Of a stretch of 64,000 nucleotides of DNA, positions 13,806 through 42,874 are shown piece by piece. The notes beneath the pieces are model-generated. The model saw only the letters and a program-made list of their open reading frames with translations. It did no database searches and had not been told where the DNA came from. Position 1 is the first letter of the stretch; each line of letters starts with the position of its first letter. The DNA lies in the IMG/VR virus record IMGVR_UViG_3300039076_000082, positions 1 to 64,000 of that record; one strand, written 5' to 3'. This stretch comes from a virus. Taxonomy: Duplodnaviria; Caudoviricetes. Position numbers and translations under genes: made by a program.

Positions 13806-14612
13806 TTGGCTAATTTTACTGTAATTAAAAAGTTTGAAAAGAAAACTAAAATAAGATGTGTATGTGGAAATGAATTATATATAAAAAATCGACTAGAATT
13901 AAAAAATACATGCAACTGTGAAATTAAAGATTCGAGATCCGAAAATTTTAATACTTCCTATAATATTTATAAAAATGGAGCAAAAGAAAGGAATTTAGAG
14001 TTTAAAATAACACCAGAACATTTTGAACATTTAATAAATAGTATATGTTTTTATTGTGATGAAAAACCTAGAATGTATTCAGAAGGTGTGGAGCGTATGG
14101 GAATAGATAGAACTTGTAACAGTGAGGGCTATCTTCCGCACAACGTAATATCTTGTTGCACTAGGTGTAATATTGGTAAACGTGATATGGATTTAGGTGA
14201 GTATGAAGAGTATATTTCAAAAGTCTATCATAACCTTAAAAAATATAGAGAATTTGTCGATAAAGATCCACAAAGAAACTTATTTCTTTTCAAAAGAGGA
14301 TATATGTTAACTGGTTCACACGTAGTTAGACTTTTGGACATGGGGCTTATCAGTAAAGAAGAAGTTCGTTACGACTTATCTAAAACATTGTTTAATAATC
14401 AATACGAGTCTAATGGGTTTGTCAATATGCTAATAGATATTGTAAGTACCTACGCTGGTACTAAAAAAGCTAAAAGTAAAGTAATGAAAACACGTTACGA
14501 CAAAATAGAAAGAATATATGCTGATTTTTTGGAAAATAAAAGAATAGATCATCAATTGGTGTGTCGTTTGATTTTAAATAAAGAATTAATTCTTTTTGAC
14601 AAAGGTAAATAA
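13806..14612 (+). CDS. HNH homing-type endonuclease
   Basis: CVCGN, CFYC...GIDR..N..GY...NVISCCTRCN..K; TTG start after AAGGAG. Confidence 0.85.
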   Translation: MANFTVIKKFEKKTKIRCVCGNELYIKNRLELKNTCNCEIKDSRSENFNTSYNIYKNGAKERNLEFKITPEHFEHLINSICFYCDEKPRMYSEGVERMGIDRTCNSEGYLPHNVISCCTRCNIGKRDMDLGEYEEYISKVYHNLKKYREFVDKDPQRNLFLFKRGYMLTGSHVVRLLDMGLISKEEVRYDLSKTLFNNQYESNGFVNMLIDIVSTYAGTKKAKSKVMKTRYDKIERIYADFLENKRIDHQLVCRLILNKELILFDKGK

Positions 14613-14674: not shown

Positions 14675-16579
14675 TTGTCACAAATCAAAACGAAAATTGC
14701 TAAACTAAACCAAACAAAGGTAAACCTCAAGAAAAAGTTTATTGGGATCGACCGTCAAATTGACCAAATTGTTAACTCAATTAAAGCGTTCATACTCTTT
14801 CCTGAGACATTAAATAAGCCTCTTATCATTAACCTTTGGGGAATTACTGGTACGTTTAAAACATCAGTTTTGCGCGAGCTAATCAAAGAATTAGAACTTA
14901 CTTCTCGTTTTGTTGAAGTAGACTCAAGAGACTTGCAAAGTGGTATCACTCCTTTATTAGGACACCCTAATCCTGATAAAAAAGATATTATTATGCCGTG
15001 TGTATTCTTATTGGACGAGTTTCAAAACACTAGAACTATTGATATCCACGGTAATGATACGGAAAGAGCTGACGGTTTAGCAGAACTATTCTCGTTTCTA
15101 TCTGATGGGAAAATTGTAATTAATCGTAATCAATACAAAGTAGAACAAGTTTTATTTCTACTGAATAGAATTAAAATTGATGTAGATTCAGTAGTTCAAC
15201 AAATTGAAGATTTCTACGAGCAAAGAGCTACTTCTAGCCTATCTAAACCTACAGTAGTAGGTCAAAAAACATCAAATGACTCTAGTGAGAAGCCAGAAAG
15301 AAAACAAGTATCTTTTGAAACTAAAATGTTTTACTTTTACGACTACTATATTGACAATATTGAAGCTCTAGTTGGTGCTGACTTTCTTCAAATCAAGTAT
15401 AAATCGCCACAAGATGCTCTATTAGCTTTAGCAGAAGCCTTAAAGGACTACGGACCTACTAAAGTATTCGACCTATCTAAATCGTTAGTTTTCGTAGCAG
15501 GTAACATTGATGAAGCATTTGCTGGACTAACTTCTATTACCGATAACGATTACTTCTCTCCTGACGACTTTTATGCGCTATCTTCAAAAGTAAACTTCAA
15601 TCAAGTTAAGCAAGCTTTATTCTACCGTTTTAAGCCGGAACAAGTAAGTAGGCTAGGTAGTAACCACGTCATCTTCCCAAGCTTTAATACGGCTATGTAT
15701 AAGGCTCTAATTACGTCTCTAAACAAGCGCTCTATCTCGAAATACAAAGATCTTGGCATCAAAATCAAGATTGACAAGTCAATTGACGAATTTATTTTGA
15801 AGCACAACGCTATACCTTCTCAGGGAGCTAGAAGTGTGTTATCTGCACATGAGTACTTAGTTGATAGCAACCTATCGGAAATTATCGCTGAGACAATGAT
15901 TAGAGGCGGTAAAGAAGTACTAATTGGAGTAGTAAACAATCGAGTCCACTTAATTAACGACAAGAAAAAAGTAATCAAAAAGAATATTGACATTATCGAT
16001 TTGACTGTGCTAAAGAACTATGAAGATAAACGAACAAACCATACTATTTCGGTTCATGAAGCATCTCATGCTGTAGTCTCAATTGCTTTATTAGGAGAAT
16101 TGCCGTCAACGATTAAAGTAAGAATGAATGATAGTAGTATAGGTGGTTATTGCAAAATAGAAGGATTCCCAGAACTTGCGAATAGACGTGATTATATTAA
16201 CTTTATCGCTATAGCATTAGCTGGTTATGTCGGAGAGTTAATTGATAATAATTACAACATTGATATGGTTTCGGTAGGAAGTTCTAGCGATATTGTAAAA
16301 GCTACTGGTATTGCTACAGACTTAGTTAAGGTATTAGGTTTAGGGATTAGTGGAGATATAACAGCTAGAGGTGTATCTGGTATGGTAGCCGATGTAATGC
16401 TAAGAGAAAATAACAAAGAAGTAGAAGAAGAGATTGAAAATATTGTAAATGAAGGATTTTTATTAGCGCATTTGGTGCTGGTTACAATGCAAAAAGAACA
16501 TAGATTATTGACGGAAGTTTTGAAAAAGAATGTCACTATTAAACCTAATCAGATTAAACATATTTTTTATAGGAGTTGA
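14675..16579 (+). CDS. Soluble AAA+ ATPase (Clp-like) fused to FtsH-type M41 Zn peptidase
   Basis: GITGTFKT (variant Walker A), FLLDEFQ, FKPEQVSRLG; C-terminal HEASH, LAGYVGE, GSSSDIVKAT; no TM segment. Confidence 0.8.
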   Translation: MSQIKTKIAKLNQTKVNLKKKFIGIDRQIDQIVNSIKAFILFPETLNKPLIINLWGITGTFKTSVLRELIKELELTSRFVEVDSRDLQSGITPLLGHPNPDKKDIIMPCVFLLDEFQNTRTIDIHGNDTERADGLAELFSFLSDGKIVINRNQYKVEQVLFLLNRIKIDVDSVVQQIEDFYEQRATSSLSKPTVVGQKTSNDSSEKPERKQVSFETKMFYFYDYYIDNIEALVGADFLQIKYKSPQDALLALAEALKDYGPTKVFDLSKSLVFVAGNIDEAFAGLTSITDNDYFSPDDFYALSSKVNFNQVKQALFYRFKPEQVSRLGSNHVIFPSFNTAMYKALITSLNKRSISKYKDLGIKIKIDKSIDEFILKHNAIPSQGARSVLSAHEYLVDSNLSEIIAETMIRGGKEVLIGVVNNRVHLINDKKKVIKKNIDIIDLTVLKNYEDKRTNHTISVHEASHAVVSIALLGELPSTIKVRMNDSSIGGYCKIEGFPELANRRDYINFIAIALAGYVGELIDNNYNIDMVSVGSSSDIVKATGIATDLVKVLGLGISGDITARGVSGMVADVMLRENNKEVEEEIENIVNEGFLLAHLVLVTMQKEHRLLTEVLKKNVTIKPNQIKHIFYRS

Positions 16580-17118
16580 ATTTGACAGAAGAGATTTGGA
16601 AAGATATTCGGGGATTTGAAGGATATTATCAAATATCTAATCATGGAAGGGTTAGGTCTTTAGATAGAATTATTCCGACCAAGAAATTTAATATAAAGAG
16701 AAAAGGTGAAGTAATGAGTACTTCGCTCAATACTAAAGGTTACCCTCATATTAGATTATGTAAGAATGGTAAAAGAGAAACATTTAGAGTTCACAGACTA
16801 GTGGCACAAACATTTTTACCTAATCCCAATAATGATGAAATTGTAAACCATAAAGATTCAAATAAGACTAATAATAATCTAGACAATCTTGAATGGTGTA
16901 GCGAAATGGACAATAGACAACACGCAAGAAAAATTTTCAACGATACAGCCTACGGAGAAGCCTGTAATCTTAGTAAATTAACTGAGCAACAAGTTAGAGA
17001 AATAAGAGCCAATGGAAAAAATGGTAGAACTAATGAGCAAATAGCTAAGTTATATAATGTATCTCATGAAACTATCAGGAATGTTTTAAACGGTAATTCT
17101 TGGAAACATATATTATAG
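16576..17118 (+). CDS. NUMOD4-HNH homing endonuclease
   Basis: EIWKDIRGFEGYYQISNHGRVRS; VHRLVA...VNHKDSNKTNN...NLEW; start may be TTG 16582. Confidence 0.92.
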   Translation: MNLTEEIWKDIRGFEGYYQISNHGRVRSLDRIIPTKKFNIKRKGEVMSTSLNTKGYPHIRLCKNGKRETFRVHRLVAQTFLPNPNNDEIVNHKDSNKTNNNLDNLEWCSEMDNRQHARKIFNDTAYGEACNLSKLTEQQVREIRANGKNGRTNEQIAKLYNVSHETIRNVLNGNSWKHIL

Positions 17119-21736: not shown

Positions 21737-24280
21737 ATGACTAAAACTACTGATACTATTACAACTATAGAAGAACTAGACGAGCTAACAGAATATTTAG
21801 TGAATCCTGTAAACAATGATACTATTATTGAAATTAGCGATAGTCATGTTGAAACCGATAAGTTAATTATCAGCTTTAACGGAAGTATTGCTAAAGAAGC
21901 TGTAATCAGAATGACTGATATCGTAATGGGAGAGATCGAATGGGTAGAAGAATCTTGTAATGGACCGATTGACACATTAACAATTGATGCACTTTTCGGT
22001 AAAGATAAACGTGCTAATATTGTAAATATCGCAATCAAAAATGATTTACTTTATTTATTCTATCTTGATGGTTCAAGCGAAACTATTCCATGTAAATATT
22101 TTATTTTATCTTCAACTAAATATGACTCTAAGTTTGAAAGACTTGAAGGTGAAACATTTTATAAATATATTAGATACTTTAATAATTTAGAATCTTATAA
22201 TTTATTTAAGAAAAATAATTACCATTCAATTTCATCAAAAGTGCTTCATGCCATTAATGATCCATTACAGCAACAATTATATTTAACAGGAATAACTTTA
22301 TATAAAGATTTAGAATTTAAGTCATTAAGAATTTTAGGGTTCGATATCGAAACTAACGGTGTCATTAAAGATAAAAATTCGTCAATTAAAGTTATTACTA
22401 ATACTCTCTGGGATGGAAATAGTCTAACTAGAACAATCTTTAGAGAAGATCACTATAAGAATGAAGGAGAAATGTTAGTAGCTTGGTCCAACTATGTCCA
22501 AGAAGTAAACCCTTCAGTAATGACTGGTCATAATATATTTGGATTCGATTTACCTTATATGATGCACGTTGCTAAATTGAATAAAGTAGAATTAAATATA
22601 AGTAGAGACGGTGGCTCCCCAATTGTCGCAAAAAGAGCTAGAAAATATCGTGTCGATGGAAGTCAAACTTGGGACTTTTTTAATATTGAAGTCTTCGGAA
22701 GAGATATTATTGATGGTATGTTCTTAGCAGTAAAATATGATGTTGGACGAAACTTCTCTAGTTGGGGACTAAAATCTATTATTGAAGCTTTAGGGCTAGT
22801 TAAAGAAGGAAGGCAATTCTATGATGCATCTAAAATTGGAGAAAACTGGAGTGACTTAGTCGAAAGAGAAAAGATTGTTGAATATTGTAAAGATGATGGT
22901 GACGATTCTATCAGTATCTTTAATACTATGACTCCTGCGTTCTTTTATTTAGCTAGGTCCATTCCTAATACGCTCCAAAACATTATTAATAGTGCTTCTG
23001 GAAGCTGGTTAAATAGCATTATAGTTAGAGCCTATATGCAGAATGGTAAGTCTATAGCAAAGCCTAATGAGCCTACAACCGTTACTGGGGGCATCTCGTT
23101 TGGTATCCCCGGCATCCATAAAAATGTGAAAAAAATAGATATTGTCTCAATGTATCCCTCAATAATGAGAGAATGGAAAATTTTTGACGATAAAAAAGAC
23201 CCTGATGCTATTTTTAATAAAATGGTAGAGTGCTATACTTTAGATCGACTAAAACATAAAAAACTTTTTAAAGAAACTAAAAATAGCTACCATGATGATA
23301 TGCAAGCTTCCTTAAAAATTGCAATTAACTCTTTATACGGATTGAATGCAACTAGTGGACTCAATTACAATAACTTTCAAAATGCTGATAAAATTACAAC
23401 ATTAGGAAGGCTAATTTTAAGAGCTAGTACAATGTGGGCATCAGGTGAAGACGTTGACTTTTGGTTTCCAGAATATAAAAACCTTGAGCATGATAATCAA
23501 TATTTCGATTTATTAAAATTAAAAGATTTTACTTCTCATAATTTTTTAATTGTCAATGGTGATACAGATTCAATCTCTTTTAAAAAGAAAGATGAAAGTC
23601 CGTTTACAGAAGAAGAAACTAAAACTTTATTAGACGAAATTAATAACATTCTTCCCAATTTAATTACATTTGAGGATGATGGGACTTTTCCAGTTGTAGT
23701 AGTTCTTAAAGCTAAAAACTATGTTTTATATGATGGAAAGAAAGTTAAGTTTAAAGGTTCAAGTTTACGTTCATCTCGCCAAGAACCTGCACTTAAAGAA
23801 ATGATGGACCGTATTCTTAAAGACTGCCTAGTTTTTGAAAAAGAAGATTACGTTAAAGTTTACAACGAATATATTAGGGAAATATTAGATATTAAAGATA
23901 TATCTCGTTGGGCTAAAAAAGAATCAGTAACAGATACAATGTTTGATAGCGATAGACTGACTGAAACAAAGAAAGTTGAAGCTATCTTAGGTATGGGCGC
24001 AAAAGTTGGCGACAAAGTATTTTTATACAACGCTTTAGATGGAGAGGAACCAGTTTTAGATAAAGATGGTAATGAAAAGAAAGATCGAAAAGGTAATACT
24101 AAAATGCAACCTAAACGAATTTTAAAGCATATCAGTAATTTTAATAATGATTATGAGCTTGACCATTATCTAAAAAGATGCTACGATTCAATTAGTATCT
24201 TAGAAAATGTAATAGATATGGAAAAAATTATTGATTATACTAAAAAAAAGAATAAGGAACTTCTTGAGCAGATAAAATGA
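21737..24280 (+). CDS. polB: Family B DNA polymerase with 3'-5' exonuclease
   Basis: FDIET, GHNIFGFDLPY, YCKDD; DIVSMYPS, KIAINSLYG, NGDTDS. Confidence 0.95.
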   Translation: MTKTTDTITTIEELDELTEYLVNPVNNDTIIEISDSHVETDKLIISFNGSIAKEAVIRMTDIVMGEIEWVEESCNGPIDTLTIDALFGKDKRANIVNIAIKNDLLYLFYLDGSSETIPCKYFILSSTKYDSKFERLEGETFYKYIRYFNNLESYNLFKKNNYHSISSKVLHAINDPLQQQLYLTGITLYKDLEFKSLRILGFDIETNGVIKDKNSSIKVITNTLWDGNSLTRTIFREDHYKNEGEMLVAWSNYVQEVNPSVMTGHNIFGFDLPYMMHVAKLNKVELNISRDGGSPIVAKRARKYRVDGSQTWDFFNIEVFGRDIIDGMFLAVKYDVGRNFSSWGLKSIIEALGLVKEGRQFYDASKIGENWSDLVEREKIVEYCKDDGDDSISIFNTMTPAFFYLARSIPNTLQNIINSASGSWLNSIIVRAYMQNGKSIAKPNEPTTVTGGISFGIPGIHKNVKKIDIVSMYPSIMREWKIFDDKKDPDAIFNKMVECYTLDRLKHKKLFKETKNSYHDDMQASLKIAINSLYGLNATSGLNYNNFQNADKITTLGRLILRASTMWASGEDVDFWFPEYKNLEHDNQYFDLLKLKDFTSHNFLIVNGDTDSISFKKKDESPFTEEETKTLLDEINNILPNLITFEDDGTFPVVVVLKAKNYVLYDGKKVKFKGSSLRSSRQEPALKEMMDRILKDCLVFEKEDYVKVYNEYIREILDIKDISRWAKKESVTDTMFDSDRLTETKKVEAILGMGAKVGDKVFLYNALDGEEPVLDKDGNEKKDRKGNTKMQPKRILKHISNFNNDYELDHYLKRCYDSISILENVIDMEKIIDYTKKKNKELLEQIK

Positions 24281-24942
24281 TTATTTGCGGTGTTTATCAA
24301 ATTAAAAATTTAGTAACTGGCGACTTATATATCGGCAGTTCTAATGATATTTTAAAAAGATTTAAAGATCATAAGAGAAAATTATTAATTAAAAGGCATC
24401 ATTCTAGATTTTTACAACTTGCTTATAATAAATATTCACTAATTAATTTTGAATTTACAATAATATGTAAATGTGATAAATTTTTAAAATTGTATATTGA
24501 GCAACTTTATATAAATTCAATGAATCCTAAATACAATACCGCCAAATCTAGTTGTGCTCCAATGGAAGGGAGAAGACATTCAGAAGAACCCAAGTTAAAA
24601 TTTAAGAATAGAGTAGTTAGAAAAGGAAAAGATAGTCCAAGTTATGGTAAAAAATGGTCAGATGAATATAAGAAAAAATGGATAGAAATTAGGACTGGCG
24701 AAAAACGCTCAGAAGAATTCAGTAAAAAAGTTTCAAAAAAGAACATAGAAACTAATAGTATTAAGTATCTAAAGCCATATCATGAGACTAATCGAAAAAA
24801 GGTTAAAAGTTCTGATGGGAATGTATTTAAATCCTTACTAGAGTGTGCTAATTTTTATAATGTTAAAGTTGCTACAGTGTGTGACGTTTTAAAAGGAAGA
24901 AGTAAAACATTAAAACGAAAATTTATTTTAGAATATTGTTGA
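24277..24942 (+). CDS. GIY-YIG homing endonuclease with NUMOD3-like region
   Basis: GVYQIKN...YIGSS...RF..H...E..YI...YN; GRRHSEE..K. Confidence 0.92.
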   Translation: MIICGVYQIKNLVTGDLYIGSSNDILKRFKDHKRKLLIKRHHSRFLQLAYNKYSLINFEFTIICKCDKFLKLYIEQLYINSMNPKYNTAKSSCAPMEGRRHSEEPKLKFKNRVVRKGKDSPSYGKKWSDEYKKKWIEIRTGEKRSEEFSKKVSKKNIETNSIKYLKPYHETNRKKVKSSDGNVFKSLLECANFYNVKVATVCDVLKGRSKTLKRKFILEYC

Positions 24943-27358: not shown

Positions 27359-28387
27359 ATGAAAACAACTACTGAGCTACTCCGCTGGTTCTATAGCAAC
27401 TATCCTCGCTTAGTTGAGGAAATGAGAAACTGCGACCACAACTTATCCTACGATGAGCCCAATAGCTATCATTTAGAAGGCGATGTTTGGTGTCATGTTA
27501 TGATGATTCTGAAACAGATTCAACAAGCTAACTACTTGACTGATTATGATAAGTATATCTATTCAGTTATAGCTCTCTGTCACGATTTAGGGAAGCCTGA
27601 AGCGCGACAAATCAGAGACGGTAAAGTAACATTCTACAACCATGATGCTATTTCAGCATTTAAAGCTATCGAAGTACTAAATCACTTAGCACTTTCCCAA
27701 GAAGAAAAAGAAGTAATCTTTCAAACTATAGCTCACCATACTCAAGTATTCAGATTGACTCGTCAACAATTATTTGACAAGCTACTTGACGCTAAACTTA
27801 GAAATACTATAGAAACTTTTGGAGTATTCGACCATGATGGACGTTTTCATGATAATCAAGAAGTAGAAAAGTCTTATACTTTATGTGAAGATTTGGTAGT
27901 AAAATATAGCTCTCAGAACGCTCCTAAAACTGTTACTGTAATGGTAGGACTTCCTGCTAGTGGTAAATCTACTTATATTGAACAAAACGCTTCAGAAGGC
28001 TCGTTTATCGTATCTAGAGATAGGATTGTAGAAGACTTAGGAGACGGTATTACTTACTCTGAGAAGTGGTATAGTGCTAATCAAAAAGAAGTAGATGAAG
28101 TGCTTCAAGAAGTATTCAAGCAAGCCAAAAAAGAAAACGAAGTATTTGTCGATATGACCCATTTGAGTACTAAGTCTAGACGTAGAACTTTGTCGCATTT
28201 CGGTAAAGAGTGGAAGAAGAAGTGTGTGGTAGTACTACCAAGTTTGACCCAACTAACTAACAATAGCGAATATCGTAAAAATACTACTGGTAAATTTGTA
28301 TCGGATAGTGTAGTATTAGAAATGATGAGTAGGTTTAGCAGTCCTACTTATAGCGAAGGGTTCGATGAGATTGAGTGGAGATTTTAA
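27359..28387 (+). CDS. HD-Pnk end-healing enzyme (HD phosphoesterase + P-loop polynucleotide kinase)
   Basis: YHLEGDVWCH...CHDLGKP...FYNH; VMVGLPASGKST...SRD...VDMTH. Confidence 0.9.
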   Translation: MKTTTELLRWFYSNYPRLVEEMRNCDHNLSYDEPNSYHLEGDVWCHVMMILKQIQQANYLTDYDKYIYSVIALCHDLGKPEARQIRDGKVTFYNHDAISAFKAIEVLNHLALSQEEKEVIFQTIAHHTQVFRLTRQQLFDKLLDAKLRNTIETFGVFDHDGRFHDNQEVEKSYTLCEDLVVKYSSQNAPKTVTVMVGLPASGKSTYIEQNASEGSFIVSRDRIVEDLGDGITYSEKWYSANQKEVDEVLQEVFKQAKKENEVFVDMTHLSTKSRRRTLSHFGKEWKKKCVVVLPSLTQLTNNSEYRKNTTGKFVSDSVVLEMMSRFSSPTYSEGFDEIEWRF

Positions 28388-28419
28388 TATGGAAAAAAGT
28401 AAAACAAATAGTGGATTTA

Positions 28420-29031
28420 ATGCGTAGAATTGATCTAGTAGGGAAAAGAAAAGATAAGTTGGTGGTTATGTCTTTTTTAGAAAAGAGAGGAAAACATTTA
28501 TATTGGAAAGCGTTATGTGATTGTGGTAAGGAAAACAAAATATCTAGTACAAATTTTCTTCAAAAAGAAACTGCTTCGTGCGGTTGTACCAGAAATAAAA
28601 AAGCTAGCGATAGGTGGAAAGGTCAAAAAAGAAAAAATACACTACCTGAAGGAGAAGGATCATTATCTTGTTTAATAAATCAATATAAACAAGGGGCTAA
28701 ATTAAAAAATGTTCCTTTCTCTTTGAGTAGAGATGAATTTAGACAATTGACAAAAAGTAACTGTTACTACTGCGGAAGAAAACCGGAAAATATCATAAAA
28801 GGTAAAAGAAGTAATGGTGAATATGTCTATAATGGAATTGATCGCATAAATTCAGATTTAGGTTATTCATATTCTAATTGTGTTACATGTTGCGTTAAGT
28901 GTAATACATCAAAAATGGATTATTCTTTTTCAGAATTTATCAATTGGGCTGAAAAATTAGCAAATAATTTATTGAAAATGGGAGATATCCAATTAGATGA
29001 AGAAGTTTATTTAAAACTGGAAAAATTATAA
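28420..29031 (+). CDS. HNH homing-type endonuclease
   Basis: MRRIDLVGKR..LVV..W...CDCG; CYYCG...NGIDRINS..GYS.SNCVTCC..CN; ATG 28420 preferred over track GTG 28375. Confidence 0.88.
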   Translation: MRRIDLVGKRKDKLVVMSFLEKRGKHLYWKALCDCGKENKISSTNFLQKETASCGCTRNKKASDRWKGQKRKNTLPEGEGSLSCLINQYKQGAKLKNVPFSLSRDEFRQLTKSNCYYCGRKPENIIKGKRSNGEYVYNGIDRINSDLGYSYSNCVTCCVKCNTSKMDYSFSEFINWAEKLANNLLKMGDIQLDEEVYLKLEKL

Positions 29032-29039
29032 AAAGTATA

Positions 29040-29068
29040 TTGACAGAATAATATAAATAAAGTATTAT
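29040..29068 (+). promoter_or_regulatory. Strong sigma70-type promoter for the ncRNA-tRNA-ligase transcript
   Basis: TTGACA-17-TATTAT. Confidence 0.8.
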
Positions 29069-29074
29069 CAATTT

Positions 29075-29165
29075 GTCTAGGTAAGAATATGATTTAGATC
29101 GGATTCGAGCCAAAAGAGAAGTTAGAGTATTGAATCATTCTCGTAAACAATACTTCCACCTAGAC
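29075..29165 (+). ncRNA. Putative ~90-nt structured RNA
   Basis: Begins at the predicted TSS; GTCTAGGT/ACCTAGAC terminal stem, AGTATTG/CAATACT hairpin, GG-ATTCGAG-CC mini hairpin. Confidence 0.5.
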
Positions 29166-29175
29166 ATTTTATATA

Positions 29176-29250
29176 TCCGAGTTCGTTTATGTAGTAAGAC
29201 GGGAGATTGTGATTCTCCTCAAAAGGGTGCAAATCCCTTACTTGGAACCA
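29176..29250 (+). tRNA. tRNA, anticodon GUG (His), atypical acceptor end
   Basis: TCCGAGT/ACTTGGA acceptor, GTTT/AGAC D stem, GGAGA-TTGTGAT-TCTCC, AAGGG-TGCAAAT-CCCTT, encoded CCA. Confidence 0.85.
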
Positions 29251-30997: not shown

Positions 30998-31288
30998 ATG
31001 AGCCTTAAATCTCCTTCCAAATACTACTCACTATCCTATCTCCTCCTAATCAAACAGAACAATTACTATCTCAACTACGACTTTCAGCCAGAAGAAGTAG
31101 ATGCACTTATTTGGCAGAAGCAACAAAAGCTGTTACCTAAGCCTCAAATAAATATAGAAGATATTACTTCAAAGCTTTGTACTAGCTGTAAGAAAGTGAA
31201 AGATTTAGTGGAGTTTGATAGGGACTCGTCGAAACTTTTGTTGAGACGATCACATTGTAAGAAATGTAGAAAAAGAGTTCCTTTTTAA
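30998..31288 (+). CDS. Hypothetical protein with endonuclease-associated Zn finger (CxxC..K...EF...CxxC)
   Basis: KLCTSCKKVKDLVEF...SHCKKC. Confidence 0.55.
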   Translation: MSLKSPSKYYSLSYLLLIKQNNYYLNYDFQPEEVDALIWQKQQKLLPKPQINIEDITSKLCTSCKKVKDLVEFDRDSSKLLLRRSHCKKCRKRVPF

Positions 31289-31300
31289 TTGGGAGAATTT

Positions 31301-31921
31301 ATGAAAAATATTAGCAATACTTTTGTTACTTCAGATTTACATTTCGGACATAAAGCGGTTATTGAATACTGTAATCGACCATTTAAAAGCCTAGAGGAAA
31401 TGGACGAAACTTTAATTAAAAACTGGAACAAGGTTGTTAAACCTATAGACAAAGTTTATGTATTGGGCGATTTCTTCATGTATCACAAAAAACCTAAGCT
31501 GAGAGAGATTATGTCTCGTTTAAACGGCACTAAGATTTTAGTACTAGGGAACCACGACATGAGCGATAGAGAGATGGAATCTATAGGATTCTCTTTTGTT
31601 TGTAGAAGTGCAACTATAAATTTAGCTAATGAATTAGTAAATTTGTCACATTTCCCATATAAAAGAAGTAAGTTATACTACCTATTTTGGGATACGCTAC
31701 ATAAACTATTTCCTAAACGATTTTTTAGACCGAGAAGATTTCATTATATGTTAGAGGATGATGGTAAGTACCTTCTACATGGGCACACGCATGGGAAAGA
31801 TAAAGTTACTGCTGGTAAAATGATTCATGTTGGTGTAGACGCTTGGAATTATACTCCTGTACCTTTACAAAAGATTGCGGATATTATCGGTAAGTTGAAA
31901 AAAGGTGAAATAATTAGTTGA
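31301..31921 (+). CDS. Calcineurin-like metallophosphoesterase
   Basis: SDLHFGH, LGDF, GNHD, SHFP, HGHTH. Confidence 0.92.
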   Translation: MKNISNTFVTSDLHFGHKAVIEYCNRPFKSLEEMDETLIKNWNKVVKPIDKVYVLGDFFMYHKKPKLREIMSRLNGTKILVLGNHDMSDREMESIGFSFVCRSATINLANELVNLSHFPYKRSKLYYLFWDTLHKLFPKRFFRPRRFHYMLEDDGKYLLHGHTHGKDKVTAGKMIHVGVDAWNYTPVPLQKIADIIGKLKKGEIIS

Positions 31922-31946
31922 CAATACTTTTTAGCTATTGTAAACT
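31918..31946 (+). promoter_or_regulatory. sigma70-type promoter for the ncRNA pair
   Basis: TTGACA-17-TAAACT. Confidence 0.75.
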
Positions 31947-31951
31947 ATATT

Positions 31952-32147
31952 TGAGCTAGCGATGTGGTAAGCTGAGAAAGTTGTTACAAGAGGTTCGATT
32001 CCTCGGGTACTAGATGGGTTCATAACAACAAGTAACTGGAGACACTTCCTTTGCCGGCACGACAAGAGTTCCTGCGAGTACCTTCAACAATCGTGTACTG
32101 GTTGGTACTTTAAATAGAAAAGTCAGAGTAGCGCCTGACCTAGCTCA
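31952..32147 (+). ncRNA. Putative ~196-nt structured RNA with tRNA T-arm
   Basis: TGAGCTAG/CTAGCTCA closure starting at the predicted TSS; GAGG-TTCGATT-CCTC; GTTGTTA/TAACAAC; GTCAG/CTGAC; GC-richer than flanks; no ORF. Confidence 0.7.
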
Positions 32148-32149
32148 TT

Positions 32150-32330
32150 ATTTAAAGGTTCTACTGTAAAATTTGATGATTAATAATTGGAGCTTTTCAT
32201 ATTGATGTTCAAGCTGGAAAGTAGCGCCTCTGACAATGCTGACTCAATATAATACTAGTCGAAAAGTAGGTGCGGTTCGCTTTATACCGCTTAATGAAAT
32301 GGATGATCAGCGTACCATTAGCCTTTAAAT
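32150..32330 (+). ncRNA. Putative ~180-nt structured RNA
   Basis: ATTTAAAGGTT/AGCCTTTAAAT closure; GCGGT/ACCGC, AATGG/CCATT, AGCTT/AAGCT hairpins. Confidence 0.6.
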
Positions 32331-32475
32331 CCTTTATTCGGAGATAATTATGATTACTTTAATTTTTGTGCTAATATACTACTATATACTCTTCAATAGT
32401 TCAACTACTGAAACAGATTTATATAAACAATATGACTATATCGGTATTTGTAAATCAAATCCTTGGGACTAACAA

Positions 32476-32940
32476 ATGACTAAACTTATACTAATACTAC
32501 TACTAACATTAGCACCACTATCTTACGCTAGTGCTCCTATTAACTATGCTTCAGGTATTGATCCTGCTTCTTTTGAAAAGCTCCATCCTAAACTTAAAGA
32601 TATTGCTTATTTTGTAGCATCATTTTGTCAACAGAACGGTATTAAGTTTGTAATTACTTCTACCATTAGAACAAAAGAAAGGAATCGTTTAGTTGGTGGA
32701 AAGAGCGAAACCCACACCTCCGGACGTGCGTTCGATTTCTCATTAAGAGAAGAATATGGTTGGACTGATGATAGGATCATGCTACTAGTTTATCAAATTG
32801 AGAGAAACTATAAAGAGTTTGGAGCTTACTCATTAAACGGAGGTAAGCAAGTAGTAATCTTTAATCATAGTGCAGAATCTGGTAAGGGGGGATTGTACCA
32901 TTCTCATATTCAAGTAAGAAGAGATTTACCGTGGAATTGA
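32476..32940 (+). CDS. Peptidase M15-family endolysin with N-terminal signal peptide
   Basis: ITSTIRT, SxHxxGxAxD (SETHTSGRAFD), HSHIQ; MTKLILILLLTLAPLSYA-S. Confidence 0.85.
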   Translation: MTKLILILLLTLAPLSYASAPINYASGIDPASFEKLHPKLKDIAYFVASFCQQNGIKFVITSTIRTKERNRLVGGKSETHTSGRAFDFSLREEYGWTDDRIMLLVYQIERNYKEFGAYSLNGGKQVVIFNHSAESGKGGLYHSHIQVRRDLPWN

Positions 32941-32943
32941 TTA

Positions 32944-33855
32944 ATGAAGAATAAATACCAAGATAGAATAGGATCTATTATTAGAGGTTGTCTAGTATTA
33001 GAATGTTTTAAAAAAGACAATATACAAAATCCTTATTTTAAAGTAAAATGCAAATGTGGTAATATTTTTACAATAGCTAGTACTACTTTATGTAATAAAG
33101 CTTATTCAAATAAAGATTCTAATTGTGGGTGTATTGTTAGAGTAACGTCTAATGGTAAAAAAGATGGTAGGATAATTCCTGAGAATAATATAGGTAAAAC
33201 AATTAGACAATGTAAAATATTAAGCTATATTCCTAATTTACAAAAACCAAAAGATAAAAGTTCAGGTAAATATGAGTGCGTTTGTACTTGTGGAAATACT
33301 TTTATTATCTCTCATAGTCATTTATTTAAAAAGCAATTAAAGAACATTAGAGCTAATTGCGGATGCTTCAGAGAAGAGCCGAAAGAATACAAAAGAGAGT
33401 ACGATTCTGCAACATATCATAGACTTTATCAACATAAAAAATATACTACCATTCGTAGAAATTTAGAATTTTCTTTATCTGAAGAACAATTCATTAATAT
33501 ATCAAAAAAGCCGTGCATATATTGTGAAAAAGTGACATTAAGGAACTCTTATATAAAAGTAGAGGATACCTTTGGTTCCAATAAAGGAAAAACTGGAGAA
33601 TTAATTCTTAGTAATATAAAGGGAGATAGATTAAAGAATGTAGATAAGTATACTGTACCATGTTCAGGTATAGATAGAATAGATAATAGTAAAGGGTATA
33701 TAGTAGATAATTGTGTACCATGTTGCACTTATTGTAACACCATAAAAGGTACTAGAACTGTTGAAGAGTTTTACAAAAGAGTAGAAGATCTTGCACCAAC
33801 TCATGAACAGTGTGCTAAAATCTTATCAGTCAAAAGAAAACGTGAGAAAAAATAA
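32944..33855 (+). CDS. HNH homing-type endonuclease with duplicated CxCG N-terminal modules
   Basis: CKCGN / CTCGN; CIYC...GIDRIDNSKGY..DNCVPCC..CN..K. Confidence 0.88.
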   Translation: MKNKYQDRIGSIIRGCLVLECFKKDNIQNPYFKVKCKCGNIFTIASTTLCNKAYSNKDSNCGCIVRVTSNGKKDGRIIPENNIGKTIRQCKILSYIPNLQKPKDKSSGKYECVCTCGNTFIISHSHLFKKQLKNIRANCGCFREEPKEYKREYDSATYHRLYQHKKYTTIRRNLEFSLSEEQFINISKKPCIYCEKVTLRNSYIKVEDTFGSNKGKTGELILSNIKGDRLKNVDKYTVPCSGIDRIDNSKGYIVDNCVPCCTYCNTIKGTRTVEEFYKRVEDLAPTHEQCAKILSVKRKREKK

Positions 33856-36524: not shown

Positions 36525-37403
36525 GTGGAAAATAAGTACTTAGAAAAAGGACAATCTCTCATATTACCATTTGGTATATTTACTGCTCCTATTTCTGGAA
36601 ATTACTCTATACATGAAGATTCTTGTTTATACAATCCTTCTTATATAAATATTTTTAATATAGTAAAAAGTAGCATTACAATAGATAGCAGTAAACTTGA
36701 AGGCTACTATACTAGTATTCCTAAACAACTAGACCAAGTACTTGAATACGTGAAAGATCGTTATAAACTTAACAATGATACTGCTAATAAACTCTATATA
36801 GCTGGTGGAGCGATTCGTAGTTTAATTTTAAACGAAGAAGTCAAAGATTACGATATCTTTATTGAGAATGACGAAGTAAAAACGCTTCTACTAGAAGAAT
36901 CTAAAACCAAATGTAATGGTTCTTATATCTCAGATAACGCTATTACTTTATACTCTCCTTATGGTCAGATTCAAATTATTACGACTAAAACTGGCTTTCC
37001 TTGGGAAGTAATTGATGAGTTTGACTTTGTAATGAATCAGAACTACTACTGTCCTAATCTAACAGTAGCAGGAGTTTGTGATGGGTTGTATATTGCCGAT
37101 ATTGATACTGTAATGAGTAAGAAGCTCAAGATAAATAAACATTGTCGTAACAAGCTCGGAACACTAGCTAGATTAGCTAAGTTTTTAGAACGTGGCTACT
37201 TACCTCCAAATAAGTTGGACTTAGTAGAGTTAGGAATAGCTATTTCAAAACTTAATCCAATTACTACCTTGACAGAATTAGCTTCCGAGAGTAAATTGTA
37301 CTTGAATGCGGAAGAAGTTTCAGGTCTATGTGATGGGACTACTTTAGCATTTTGTAGTGACGAAGAGATAGATAGTTTAAATAATAGAGGGAGTGGGTTA
37401 TGA
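36525..37403 (+). CDS. CCA-adding/poly(A)-polymerase-head-like nucleotidyltransferase
   Basis: IAGGAIRSLIL..VKDYDIF; IQII; FDF; R..KF..RGY. Confidence 0.75.
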   Translation: MENKYLEKGQSLILPFGIFTAPISGNYSIHEDSCLYNPSYINIFNIVKSSITIDSSKLEGYYTSIPKQLDQVLEYVKDRYKLNNDTANKLYIAGGAIRSLILNEEVKDYDIFIENDEVKTLLLEESKTKCNGSYISDNAITLYSPYGQIQIITTKTGFPWEVIDEFDFVMNQNYYCPNLTVAGVCDGLYIADIDTVMSKKLKINKHCRNKLGTLARLAKFLERGYLPPNKLDLVELGIAISKLNPITTLTELASESKLYLNAEEVSGLCDGTTLAFCSDEEIDSLNNRGSGL

Positions 37404-41499: not shown

Positions 41500-42303
41500 T
41501 TGTGTTTAAGGTGTCATATTTACAAGAAAGAAACAGATTTTGGATTTAAAAGTAGTGCCGGTAAAGGTAATGTTTGTAGAGGGTGCTGGTCTAATAATCC
41601 TTATAAAGAAATATCTGAAGAAAAGTTTACTTTCATAAAGCATTGTAAAAAATGTAACAAGTATTATCCTAGAACTTTAGAGTTTTTCTTTAAAAAATTA
41701 AAGGCTATAGCAAATGATTGTAAAAAGTGTTCATTGACTAGAAATCATTCATATTACAAAAACAATTCTAAAACTATTTTAAAACAGAAACAAAAATATT
41801 ATATTGACAATTTACCAAAAATTACAAAATATAAGCGTAAATATAACAATACAGAAATGGCTAGAATTCGTTATAAAAAATTATATCAAAAAAGAATTAA
41901 TTGTCCAATAGAATACTTAAAAAAGAATATTTCATCTAGAATAGTAAATGTGTTAAAATCTAAGGGGAAGAAGAAGTTGAAACTTACGGAAGAGATTCTG
42001 GGTTGCAACAGATTTCAGTTTTATGAATACCTGAAAAATACATTTGAGACTAATTATGCGATAAAATGGAACGAAAGCTATATAAAATTACTGAATATTG
42101 ATCATATCAATCCAATTTCGCTAGCAATGAATGAAAAAGAGGTATATGAATTAAATCATTACACTAATTTACAATTCTTATACAAAAGAGACAACCTTCA
42201 AAAGAATAATAACTTAGATTGGAAATTAGACTTGACAAAAACTAAATTGTTTGATAATATTAAAAAACTTAACCTACCTATAGAGATTATATCTAATGTC
42301 TGA
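41500..42303 (+). CDS. HNH-type endonuclease with CxxC repeats
   Basis: Multiple CxxC; NIDHINP...HYTNLQ.L...NL.K; TTG start. Confidence 0.75.
   Translation: MCLRCHIYKKETDFGFKSSAGKGNVCRGCWSNNPYKEISEEKFTFIKHCKKCNKYYPRTLEFFFKKLKAIANDCKKCSLTRNHSYYKNNSKTILKQKQKYYIDNLPKITKYKRKYNNTEMARIRYKKLYQKRINCPIEYLKKNISSRIVNVLKSKGKKKLKLTEEILGCNRFQFYEYLKNTFETNYAIKWNESYIKLLNIDHINPISLAMNEKEVYELNHYTNLQFLYKRDNLQKNNNLDWKLDLTKTKLFDNIKKLNLPIEIISNV
42232..42260 (+). promoter_or_regulatory. Promoter for clpP inside the upstream HNH gene
   Basis: TTGACA-17-TAATAT. Confidence 0.65.
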
Positions 42304-42874
42304 AAAAACAGCTAAACGTCTTAACATAGACAATATTACTACATTTCTTGAAGACGGTATCGATATTGACAATCGCAAAGTTCAAATATTTCAAGATATT
42401 GACCAAAAACTATCAGCTAAAGTTATCAGCGGTATCCAACTAATGTTAGCTAAAAATAAAGAAAATCCTATCGATATTTATATCAACTCGTTTGGTGGCG
42501 ATATCTATTCGGGGTTTGGTTTATACGACTTTATCAGCTTATTAGACGTTCAAATAACGATCACAGTAGTTGGTTGTGCCATGAGTGCTGCTAGTGTCGT
42601 CCTAATGGCAGGAGACGTTCGTAAAATGACTAAAAACTCTCGTTTAATGTTACATACTACTAGCGGAGGCGTGGAAGGTAAGAGTTATGAGATCATTACC
42701 GATGGAGAAGAACACAAAGTGCTTCATAACCAAATGTGTGAGTTATATGGAGATCGATCTAAAGTAACTAGTAAACAATGGAAAAAAGACTTAGAATATG
42801 TTGATAAATTTTACAGCGCTAAAAAAGCATTAGAATTAGGTCTAATTGACGAAATTCTTGAACAAAACTCTTGA
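42296..42874 (+). CDS. clpP: ClpP-family serine protease
   Basis: IDIYINSFGG, GCAMSAAS (Ser), RLMLHT (His). Confidence 0.9.
   Translation: MSEKTAKRLNIDNITTFLEDGIDIDNRKVQIFQDIDQKLSAKVISGIQLMLAKNKENPIDIYINSFGGDIYSGFGLYDFISLLDVQITITVVGCAMSAASVVLMAGDVRKMTKNSRLMLHTTSGGVEGKSYEIITDGEEHKVLHNQMCELYGDRSKVTSKQWKKDLEYVDKFYSAKKALELGLIDEILEQNS

What the first reader, a model, noticed from the sequence alone, without database searches (positions are those of the whole stretch)
31952..32147. ~196-nt RNA with a T-arm and permuted tRNA-like topology or a two-state switch
Seen: starts about 6 nt after a TTGACA-17-TAAACT promoter and is closed by TGAGCTAG/CTAGCTCA. It has a canonical T-loop hairpin GAGG-TTCGATT-CCTC (31990-32004), followed by GGGTACT (32005-32011), which can pair with the downstream AGTACCT (32077-32083); a CAAC/GTTG D-like stem follows. 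That order (T arm, acceptor 3', loop, acceptor 5', D arm) is circularly permuted relative to tRNA, as in bacterial YrlA Y-RNAs. AGTACC can alternatively pair with a second GGTACT (32104-32109), so two conformers exclude each other. No Ro60 gene is in the window. The identity is inference.
Basis: partly seen in the sequence, partly recalled or inferred. Interest (0 to 1): 0.78.

Follow-up and report, generated by a model that had tools for sequence, protein, structure and literature searches.

The report
Patchwork tRNA-derived RNA in phage slot
This 196-base stretch of an uncultivated phage is most likely a small RNA gene patched together from pieces of tRNA-like genes, at a spot where related phages carry ordinary or odd tRNAs or nothing; the evidence does not support a back-to-front tRNA mimic of the Y-RNA kind.

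Summary
Only some exceed chance. The T-arm is the only such motif in the 85-kb genome (0.13 expected). The "permuted acceptor" helix has a 4% chance expectation, about zero ensemble probability and costs 6.3 kcal/mol. The whole RNA folds no better than shuffles (z = -0.06).

No Rfam family matches (YrlA, permuted tmRNA, tRNA beyond the T-arm), and the phage has no Ro60/TROVE gene.

Eight related loci show that this position is a hypervariable tRNA slot. It lies between a conserved promoter and a conserved leader of the lysis genes. It holds:
- a tRNA-Cys in one relative;
- an 84-nt ACCA-ended cloverleaf ("type B") in four;
- other end-paired T-arm RNAs in two;
- nothing in one.

Positions 32100-32135 are homologous to the 5' half of type B (0 of 1000 shuffles score as high).

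Verdict: a real, tRNA-derived, chimeric RNA cassette. Its function is unproven, and the permuted, YrlA-like or switch readings are not supported. The exact RNA is known only from two near-identical phages. Other notes in this scan report permuted tRNA mimics on other DNA; this locus lacks their protein partners.

The parts
31918..31946 (+). Sigma-70-type promoter TTGACA-17-TAAACT, conserved in relatives
   Evidence: The block TTAGTTGACAATA..TTTTTAGCTAT.GTA is nearly invariant in the window, L011, L013, L015 and L016. In these loci the RNA, or in L016 the empty site, begins 5 nt after the -10 hexamer.
31952..32147 (+). RNA1 ('type A'), a 196-nt chimeric tRNA-derived RNA. The 5' end is probably at G31953 or A31954 (inferred from the promoter).
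   Evidence: 99.5% identical in the twin phage L015.
31952..31959 (+). 5' strand of the terminal (acceptor-like) stem, TGAGCTAG
   Evidence: Ensemble probability about 1. The same TGAG start has a different, matching 3' strand in L011 (TGAGATTG/CGATCTCA) and L013 (TGAGTAGT/ACTACTCA). In the empty site of L016, GAGCTAG is present without a partner.
31990..32004 (+). Canonical T-arm GAGG-TTCGATT-CCTC
   Evidence: Unique in the genome, 0.13 expected. Local tRNA-model hit of 9.4 bits to model positions 48-62. Pairing probability 0.61.
32005..32083 (+). This helix is possible but unsupported.
   Evidence: Probability near 0 and a cost of 6.3 kcal/mol. Chance 0.04. GTAC occurs four times in RNA1, which puts it in the top 0.45% of windows.
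32100..32139 (+). Segment homologous to the 5' half of the type-B tRNA-like RNA: GGTTGG (type B's acceptor strand), an A-rich D-like region, and the hairpin GTCAG-A-GT-AGC-GC-CTGAC with the same tip as type B
   Evidence: blastn E = 0.001. Local score 16 against a null of 8.1 +/- 1.3, reached by 0 of 1000 shuffles. Alignment. Hairpin probability 0.97. The full type-B covariance model scores only 8.8 bits, E = 8.
32140..32147 (+). 3' strand of the terminal stem, CTAGCTCA, followed by AU-rich TTATTTAAAGG with no CCA and no terminator
32185..32340 (+). Conserved leader ('RNA2') of the lysis cassette, downstream of the slot. It is not part of RNA1 but marks the right-hand edge of the slot.
   Evidence: The blocks GGAGCTTTTC, GAAAAGTAGGT and CCTTTAAATCCTTT are shared by 8 loci, and the P1 pairing is conserved.
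32350..32940 (+). Lysis cassette: a 40-aa hydrophobic peptide (32350-32472) and a signal-peptide-bearing M15 peptidase (32476-32940)

Best explanation
RNA1 is a chimeric, tRNA-derived small-RNA cassette. It sits in a hypervariable 'tRNA slot' between a conserved early-type promoter and the conserved leader of the lysis genes.

Shown:
- In relatives the slot holds a tRNA-Cys, an ACCA-ended 84-nt cloverleaf (type B), other end-paired RNAs with a T-arm next to their 3' strand, or nothing.
- The last third of RNA1 is homologous to the 5' half of type B.
- The first third has the layout of the L013 mini-RNA: 5' strand, hairpin, then a canonical T-arm in normal tRNA order.
- The ends pair in an 8-bp stem.

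Inferred:
- Transcription starts in the first bases of that stem, so the 5' end is buried in a helix.
- The RNA is made as the head of a transcript that runs on into the lysis leader. Host nucleases probably cut it off at the AU-rich tail, leaving a stable RNA.
- Its tRNA-type parts (terminal stem, T-arm, the hairpin with the GU-AGC-GC tip) let it engage enzymes that read tRNA shape. The most likely use is as a tRNA look-alike in the tRNA-centred conflict for which this phage also carries HD-Pnk, an RNA ligase, a CCA/poly(A)-type nucleotidyltransferase and a tRNA-His.
- It probably arose by recombination among slot cassettes in a genome rich in homing endonucleases.
For: - Slot contents (RNAs listed first, then the calls that show them): tRNA-Cys in L014. 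Type B in L010, L012, L017 and L015, where every varying stem pair stays paired and one closing-stem pair changes on both sides (G:C to U:A). The type-B model also picks up an ordinary tRNA in L002 at 18 bits. Type C in L011 and two units in L013. Empty site in L016.
- The promoter is conserved and the TGAG-class stems start 5 nt after the -10 hexamer.
- The inner four pairs of the terminal stem differ among the window, L011 and L013, and are complementary in each.
- Homology of RNA1 to type B. The lower stem of the shared hairpin is entirely different yet still pairs (GTCAG/CTGAC against GAAGG/CCTTT), while the tip is kept.
- The T-arm is unique in the genome.
- RNA-repair genes lie nearby.
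- Homing endonucleases.
- No credible ORF.
Against: - There is no expression data.
- The exact RNA is seen only in two genomes that are 99.4% identical, so there is no covariation for RNA1 itself.
- The fold energy is no better than shuffles.
- An 8-bp end pairing after a promoter has a 4.4% background rate.
- The full type-B model scores the window segment at only 8.8 bits.
- The 5' third shows no significant sequence similarity to the L011 or L013 RNAs beyond the promoter, TGAG and the T-loop.
- The slot can be empty, so the cassette is dispensable.
- The decoy role is pure inference.
Confidence: 0.55

Rival explanations
1. Inert relic. The stretch is a graveyard of tRNA-gene fragments left by repeated recombination and deletion in the slot. 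It is transcribed only as an untranslated 5' leader of the lysis mRNA, it has no function of its own, and the end pairing is a by-product.
For: - z = -0.06.
- The B-like unit is truncated and has no 3' half.
- A second, degenerate B-like remnant lies at 32211-32235 inside the leader.
- The slot is empty in L016.
- The twin phage L015 differs by a 390-nt indel right after RNA1.
- End pairing has a 4.4% background rate.
- The distribution is very narrow.
Against: - The T-arm keeps every conserved T-loop position in a genome of 32% G+C.
- The B-like hairpin keeps pairing although its stem sequence is fully changed.
- End stems recur with matching changes in three different TGAG-class RNAs.
Confidence: 0.25
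2. A circularly permuted tRNA mimic of the YrlA type: a T-arm stacked on a loop-capped acceptor helix (GGGUACU/AGUACCU), then a D-like arm, with the paired ends playing the Y-RNA stem. RNase P and RNase Z might cut the loop to give a two-piece RNA.
For: - The 7-nt complement lies directly 3' of the T-stem, as in tRNA geometry, and has a 4% chance expectation.
- GTAC is enriched.
- The M. smegmatis YrlA is cut in this way (PMC4201824).
- Earlier notes of this scan report permuted tRNA mimics in other phages. These notes are unchecked leads.
Against: - No RF02553 hit at E<=10 and no TROVE gene.
- No GNCGAA(N)G motif and no GG in the 'D-loop'.
- 196 nt, against 80-130 nt for YrlA.
- The helix has probability near 0 and costs 6.3 kcal/mol.
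- ARAGORN on the re-joined parts is not above controls.
- The 'D-arm' strand is homologous to type B's acceptor strand.
- No DUF7873 or Ro60-like family among the 39 proteins scanned.
Confidence: 0.1
3. Cis-regulatory two-state leader. RNA1 and RNA2 together act as an attenuator or switch that times expression of the lysis cassette from the early promoter, using the competing AGUACC pairings.
For: - There is no terminator between the promoter and the lysis genes.
- RNA2 is conserved across 8 loci and its P1 helix is conserved.
- Two partners for AGUACC exist.
Against: - RNA1 is replaced by unrelated RNAs, by a true tRNA, or by nothing in relatives that keep RNA2 and the lysis genes. Any regulation therefore resides in RNA2.
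- The alternative pairing has probability 0.09 and the first about 0.
- No riboswitch or T-box hit.
Confidence: 0.06
4. Two-piece (permuted) tmRNA-like RNA. The T-arm piece lies upstream, the 5' acceptor piece downstream, and a tag frame starts at GGAGCTTTTCA in RNA2.
For: ARAGORN reports a permuted tmRNA with tag GAFHIDVQAGK, but only at a 60% threshold.
Against: - No hit to RF04321 or any other tmRNA model.
- No G3:U70 pair and no encoded CCA.
- The 'tag' frame is not conserved in relatives, where the same block is followed by different short frames.
- In relatives the upstream RNA is a complete unit in normal order.
Confidence: 0.02

Closest known systems
Phage-encoded tRNA genes and the small stable tRNA-like RNAs found beside them (for example T4 'species 1/2' RNAs rnaC and rnaD; these are recalled from memory and were not checked here)
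   Same: - Lies in a tRNA gene slot of a lytic-type phage that also carries RNA-repair enzymes.
- The ends pair like an acceptor stem.
- It has a canonical T-arm.
- It is co-transcribed with other genes, so it needs processing.
- Its function is not obvious.
   Different: - 196 nt and built from parts of at least two tRNA-like units.
- No CCA end and no anticodon arm of standard form.
- Not detected by ARAGORN or by the tRNA model beyond the T-arm.
'Type B' slot RNA of related phages (L010, L012, L017, L015): an 84-nt ACCA-ended cloverleaf that is not in Rfam
   Same: - Positions 32100-32135 align to type-B positions 3-38 (0 of 1000 shuffles score as high).
- Same GGTTGG, and same hairpin tip GU-AGC-GC.
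- Same genomic slot.
   Different: - RNA1 lacks type B's variable hairpin, T-like arm, 3' acceptor strand and ACCA.
- In RNA1 the GGTTGG cannot pair as an acceptor strand.
- The full type-B model scores it at only 8.8 bits.
YrlA (Rfam RF02553), the tRNA-like Y RNA bound by bacterial and phage Ro60/Rsr (Chen et al. 2014, PMC4201824)
   Same: - Paired 5' and 3' ends.
- A canonical T-arm.
- A possible order of T-arm, capped helix, then a further stem-loop.
   Different: - No model hit, no Ro60 gene, and no Ro60-binding motif.
- No GG D-loop.
- Longer than YrlA.
- The capped helix is not supported by energy or by homology.
Permuted (two-piece) tmRNA (Rfam RF04321)
   Same: The T-arm with its 3' acceptor-like strand lies upstream of a possible 5' acceptor strand.
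   Different: - No model hit.
- No alanine identity pair and no CCA.
- No conserved tag frame.

Membership tests
YrlA / bacterial Y RNA (RF02553) | Match to the family covariance model | tested here: not met
   No hit at E<=10 in the whole 85-kb phage or in the sensitive 801-nt scan.
YrlA / bacterial Y RNA (RF02553) | Encoded next to a Ro60/Rsr (TROVE) gene | tested here: not met
   PF05731 finds nothing in the genome, while the control genomes ring. The neighbours are a metallophosphatase and the lysis genes. A Ro60-shaped protein without Pfam signal was not sought by structure.
YrlA / bacterial Y RNA (RF02553) | Conserved GNCGAA(N0-1)G on the 5' strand of the terminal stem (PMC4201824) | tested here: not met
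   The nearest word is TAGCGATG at 31957-64, with two of six specified positions wrong.
YrlA / bacterial Y RNA (RF02553) | T-arm, loop-capped acceptor-like stem, then a D-arm with the tRNA-invariant bases (GG in the D-loop) | tested here: inconclusive
   - The T-arm is canonical.
- The capped helix can be drawn, but has probability near 0 and costs 6.3 kcal/mol.
- The proposed D-loop AATCGTGTACTG has no GG.
- There are no relatives in which to test covariation.
tRNA (RF00005 / ARAGORN) | Full cloverleaf match | tested here: not met
   Only a local T-arm hit of 9.4 bits. ARAGORN finds nothing at its default setting. Calls at relaxed thresholds are at control level.
Permuted tmRNA (RF04321) | Model match, G3:U70 pair, CCA end, conserved tag frame | tested here: not met
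   No hit. The acceptor would read A-U, G-C, U-A, and the discriminator is followed by GAT. The frame is not conserved.
Type-B slot tRNA-like RNA (defined here, model R1) | Five-helix cloverleaf ending in ACCA | tested here: not met
   Only the 5' half is present. R1 scores it at 8.8 bits, E = 8. This makes it a relative by descent of one part, not a member.
DUF7873-linked double tRNA-mimic RNA (earlier notes of this scan, unchecked) | Lies directly downstream of a DUF7873 gene | tested here: not met
   The upstream gene hits only Metallophos families. None of the 29 proteins scanned against Pfam carried DUF7873.

The most novel reading that the evidence does not exclude
RNA1 is a working, Ro60-independent, circularly permuted tRNA mimic. 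The T-arm stacks on the GGGUACU/AGUACCU helix. Host RNase P and RNase Z open its 65-nt cap to give a two-piece RNA held together by the terminal stem. The phage's HD-Pnk, ligase and CCA-type enzymes act on it as part of a defence against tRNA-cutting host nucleases.
Probability: 0.08. Interest if true: 0.75.

Novelty: new variant of a known kind. Interest (0 to 1): 0.38.

Why it matters
If the reading is right, this group of uncultivated phages keeps a promoter-driven slot where tRNA genes and tRNA look-alikes are swapped, truncated and fused. That would be a natural record of how non-canonical tRNA-like RNAs, and possibly permuted ones, arise from ordinary tRNA genes. It would add to the evidence that phages field tRNA-shaped RNAs alongside RNA-repair enzymes.

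The case also carries a caution: 'T-arm before 5' half' can be produced by two partial units lying side by side, without a true circular permutation.

The specific 196-nt RNA is rare and its function is unproven, so on its own it is of moderate interest. The ACCA-ended type-B RNA and the conserved lysis leader beside it may be better targets.

Tried and rejected
- **Whole-window Rfam gathering scan:** no hits, but it also missed the tRNA-His that a small-region scan scores at 42 bits. I relied only on small-region scans and single-family searches.
- **Homologues by DNA:**
  - INPHARED blastn found none.
  - The IMG/VR exact pattern found none.
  - The JGI metagenome pattern gave four chance hits in 63-71% G+C DNA.
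- **IMG/VR loci found through flanking proteins:** only two distant loci, neither with the RNA.
- **Relatives of the upstream phosphatase:** the slot is not linked to that gene.
- **Permuted tRNA by ARAGORN:**
  - Nothing was found for the full re-join.
  - A 'tRNA-Stop(tta)' call appeared for a trimmed re-join at an 80% threshold, but 12-13% of controls reach it.
- **'tRNA-Ala(agc)' at an 80% threshold:** it uses promoter bases upstream of the start, so I rejected it.
- **tmRNA reading:** rejected.
- **Small protein:** no credible ORF.
- **Genome-wide 'promoter plus end-paired RNA' rule:** not enriched over background.
- **Ro60 or DUF7873 partner:** none found among the 39 proteins scanned.
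- **Cultured relatives:** the nearest DNA polymerase B is 26% identical (Salinibacter phages), so the host is unknown.
- **The look-up of encoding contigs:** A third contig that carries identical 62-aa and 69-aa neighbour proteins could not be fetched.

Full report
**Setting**

The window is the first 64 kb of an 85-kb IMG/VR phage record with about 32% G+C. It has no close cultured relative. The nearest DNA polymerase B is 26% identical, from Salinibacter phages.

The finding lies in a 428-nt gene-free gap, 31922-32349. On one side is a metallophosphatase (31289-31921). On the other is a lysis cassette: a 40-aa hydrophobic peptide and an M15 peptidase with a signal peptide. Two to four kilobases upstream are an HD-Pnk kinase/phosphatase, an HNH endonuclease, a tRNA-His and an RNA ligase. 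A poly(A)/CCA-type nucleotidyltransferase lies at 36525.

**Checking the observation**

The promoter scores 10 of 12.

- The T-arm is the strongest single feature. A 4-bp stem with G53:C61 and a TTCRANY loop occurs once in the whole genome on both strands, against 0.13 expected. The tRNA covariance model aligns it locally to its T-arm.
- The 8-bp end pairing has probability about 1 in the ensemble. But an 8-bp pairing starting 4-12 nt after any chosen position has a 4.4% background rate. One promoter-linked example in this genome lies inside a coding region.
- The helix that makes the topology 'permuted' (GGGUACU/AGUACCU) is weak. It has a 4% chance expectation, ensemble probability near 0, and costs 6.3 kcal/mol when enforced. 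The rival AGUACC/GGUACU pairing reaches 0.09.
- The 196 nt fold no better than dinucleotide shuffles (z = -0.06).
- No ORF longer than 20 aa lies on the + strand.

**Known families**

The whole-window Rfam scan returned nothing, but it also missed the tRNA-His that a small-region scan scores at 42 bits. I therefore relied on a sensitive 801-nt scan and on single-family searches.

- The sensitive scan gave only a chance snoRNA match in the neighbouring leader.
- YrlA (RF02553): no hit at E<=10.
- Permuted tmRNA (RF04321): no hit.
- tRNA (RF00005): the T-arm only, 9.4 bits.
- ARAGORN finds only the tRNA-His at default settings.
- At a 60% threshold ARAGORN proposes a permuted tmRNA, and at 80% a tRNA-Ala that uses promoter bases.
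- When I re-joined the parts in tRNA order, an 80%-threshold call appeared. However, 12-13% of controls with shuffled or random 5' parts do the same.
- No TROVE/Ro60 gene is present.
- The Ro60-binding motif and the size range given for YrlA in PMC4201824 are not met.

**Comparative evidence**

DNA searches found no copy of RNA1. Homologues of the downstream endolysin and the upstream phosphatase in the large protein collection gave nine useful contigs.

L015 is a twin phage, 99.4% identical. It carries RNA1 with a single substitution, at an unpaired position. It then carries 390 extra bases holding a terminator-like hairpin, an 84-nt RNA ('type B') and a 63-aa ORF.

In all loci the same two landmarks frame a variable stretch.

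- On the left is the promoter block, nearly invariant in the window, L011, L013, L015 and L016.
- On the right, in every locus except L013, is a leader with the blocks GGAGCTTTTC, GAAAAGTAGGT and CCTTTAAATCCTTT, followed by the ribosome-binding site of the first lysis gene.

Between these landmarks lie:

- L014: a tRNA-Cys(GCA).
- L010, L012, L017, and again L015: type B. Type B folds as a five-helix cloverleaf ending in A-CCA. Every variable stem position stays paired, and one closing-stem pair changes on both sides.
- L011: a 105-nt RNA, TGAGATTG...GTAGG-TGCAAGT-CCTAC-CGATCTCA.
- L013: a 60-nt RNA, TGAGTAGT...AAGG-TTCAACT-CCTT-T-ACTACTCA, followed by a 78-nt CCA-ended marginal tRNA.
- L016: nothing. 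The promoter and GAGCTAG run straight into a ribosome-binding site and a 45-aa ORF.

A covariance model built from type B also picks up an ordinary tRNA in L002. Type B is therefore genuinely tRNA-shaped, although neither ARAGORN nor Rfam calls it.

The position is thus a tRNA slot with fast-changing contents. The three TGAG-class RNAs (window, L011, L013) share the first four bases. They differ in the next four (CTAG, ATTG, TAGT), and each has the matching 3' strand. This is the best evidence that the end stem is selected.

**What RNA1 is made of**

Positions 32100-32135 align without gaps to positions 3-38 of type B: GGTTGG, a short A-rich hairpin region, and a hairpin with the tip GU-AGC-GC. 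The evidence:

- blastn E = 0.001.
- Local score 16 against a null of 8.1 +/- 1.3, reached by 0 of 1000 shuffles.
- The lower stem of the hairpin is wholly different in sequence but still pairs, with one bulged A (GTCAG/CTGAC in the window, GAAGG/CCTTT in type B). It has probability 0.97 in the ensemble.

In type B, GGTTGG is the 5' acceptor strand. In RNA1 its 3' partner is missing.

The first 53 nt of RNA1 have the same plan as the L013 mini-RNA: 5' strand, about 30 nt that can form a hairpin, then a canonical T-arm. That is normal tRNA order. Sequence similarity there is not significant beyond the T-loop.

A second, degenerate B-like word (GCTGGAAAGTAGCGCC) sits inside the window's leader, where the twin phage has different sequence.

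The genome carries at least five homing-endonuclease genes: a GIY-YIG at 24277, and HNH types at 13806, 16576, 28375 and 32944. These give a plausible source of such shuffling.

I therefore read the 'T-arm, then 5' half' order as two partial tRNA-like units lying one after the other inside one end-paired transcript, not as a circular permutation with a working acceptor helix.

**How it probably works**

Shown: the promoter and slot are conserved, and the RNA has a stable terminal stem, a canonical T-arm and a conserved-tip hairpin.

Inferred:

- Transcription starts at G31953 or A31954, inside the stem.
- There is no terminator before the lysis genes. A discrete RNA would therefore have to be cut out at the AU-rich tail after 32147.
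- Its tRNA-type parts would let it meet enzymes that read tRNA shape.
- Given the neighbouring HD-Pnk, ligase, nucleotidyltransferase and tRNA-His, a role as a tRNA look-alike in the contest with tRNA-cutting host defences is the most likely function. The idea that phage tRNAs serve that contest is argued in PMC10264068 (listed; I did not read it in full).

**Comparison and novelty**

The closest known kind is the set of tRNA genes and tRNA-like stable RNAs in phage tRNA regions. The closest actual relative is the unnamed type-B RNA. YrlA is similar only in having paired ends and a T-arm, and four of its defining features were tested and not met.

Other notes in this scan describe permuted tRNA mimics next to Ro60-like or DUF7873 proteins in other phages. 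Those are unchecked leads. Here no such protein was found among the 39 proteins I scanned, 29 of them against Pfam, and the upstream gene is a metallophosphatase.

**Limits**

- There is no covariation for RNA1 itself and no expression data.
A third contig with identical neighbour proteins was not examined.

Noticed in passing
window 32185-32340; L010 3299-3473, L011 3332-3475, L012 3107-3261, L014 3295-3471, L015 4251-4408, L016 629-751, L017 153-327: A conserved non-coding leader lies just before the lysis cassette. Three invariant blocks (GGAGCTTTTC, GAAAAGTAGGT, CCTTTAAATCCTTT) are separated by variable hairpins. The helix GCUUUUC/GAAAAGU is kept in 8 loci, with one compensatory change. 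A hairpin shared by the window and L016 changes G:C to A:U. It has no Rfam hit and is a candidate regulator of lysis timing.
   Followed up: partly
L010 3200-3283, L012 3008-3091, L017 54-137, L015 3956-4039: 'Type B' is an 84-nt five-helix cloverleaf ending in A-CCA. It starts at the predicted transcription start, has a 9-nt T-like loop and an anticodon-like hairpin with tip GU-AGC-GC. ARAGORN and Rfam do not call it, yet a model built from it finds an ordinary tRNA. It is a non-canonical tRNA or tRNA mimic that deserves its own study.
   Followed up: partly
window 29040-29166: A second promoter (TTGACA-17-TATTAT) is followed by a 93-nt end-paired RNA (TGTCTAGG.../...CCTAGACA) 9 nt upstream of tRNA-His. 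Its fold z-score is -2.45, so it is better supported by energy than RNA1.
   Followed up: partly
window 1-64000 (method): The whole-window Rfam gathering scan reported no match at all, although tRNA-His at 29176-29247 scores 42.3 bits (cut-off 29) in a 251-nt scan. In the same way, the tRNA-Cys of L014 was missed in a 13.8-kb scan. Large-input scans in this AT-rich DNA lose true tRNAs.
   Followed up: yes
window 13806-14612, 16576-17118, 24277-24942, 28375-29031, 30998-31288, 32944-33855: The early region carries many homing-endonuclease-type genes: four HNH/endonuclease VII types, one GIY-YIG with NUMOD3, and a small zinc-finger relative. One lies directly after the endolysin and one between HD-Pnk and the ligase. 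They are a likely driver of the local mosaicism.
   Followed up: partly
L015 3855-4250 versus window 32155-32184: The 99.4%-identical twin phage has 390 extra bases right after RNA1: a terminator-like hairpin, a complete type-B RNA and a 63-aa membrane-like ORF. The window instead has a degenerate B-like word inside its leader (32211-32235). This is a recent indel or recombination event at the slot.
   Followed up: partly
L011 2913-3183, L013 38-318, L016 141-431; window 30998-31288: In three relatives the gene just upstream of the slot promoter is a zinc-finger protein of about 93 aa ending in ...P(I/V)PF. It is homologous in position to the window's 96-aa ORF. In the window the metallophosphatase is inserted between that gene and the promoter.
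   Followed up: no
window 14675-16579 and 42296-42874; L006 943-2238: The phage encodes an FtsH-like protein (AAA+ with Peptidase_M41) and a ClpP-type protease. A related phage contig (L006) carries an IS605 OrfB/TnpB (Cas12f-like) gene.
   Followed up: no
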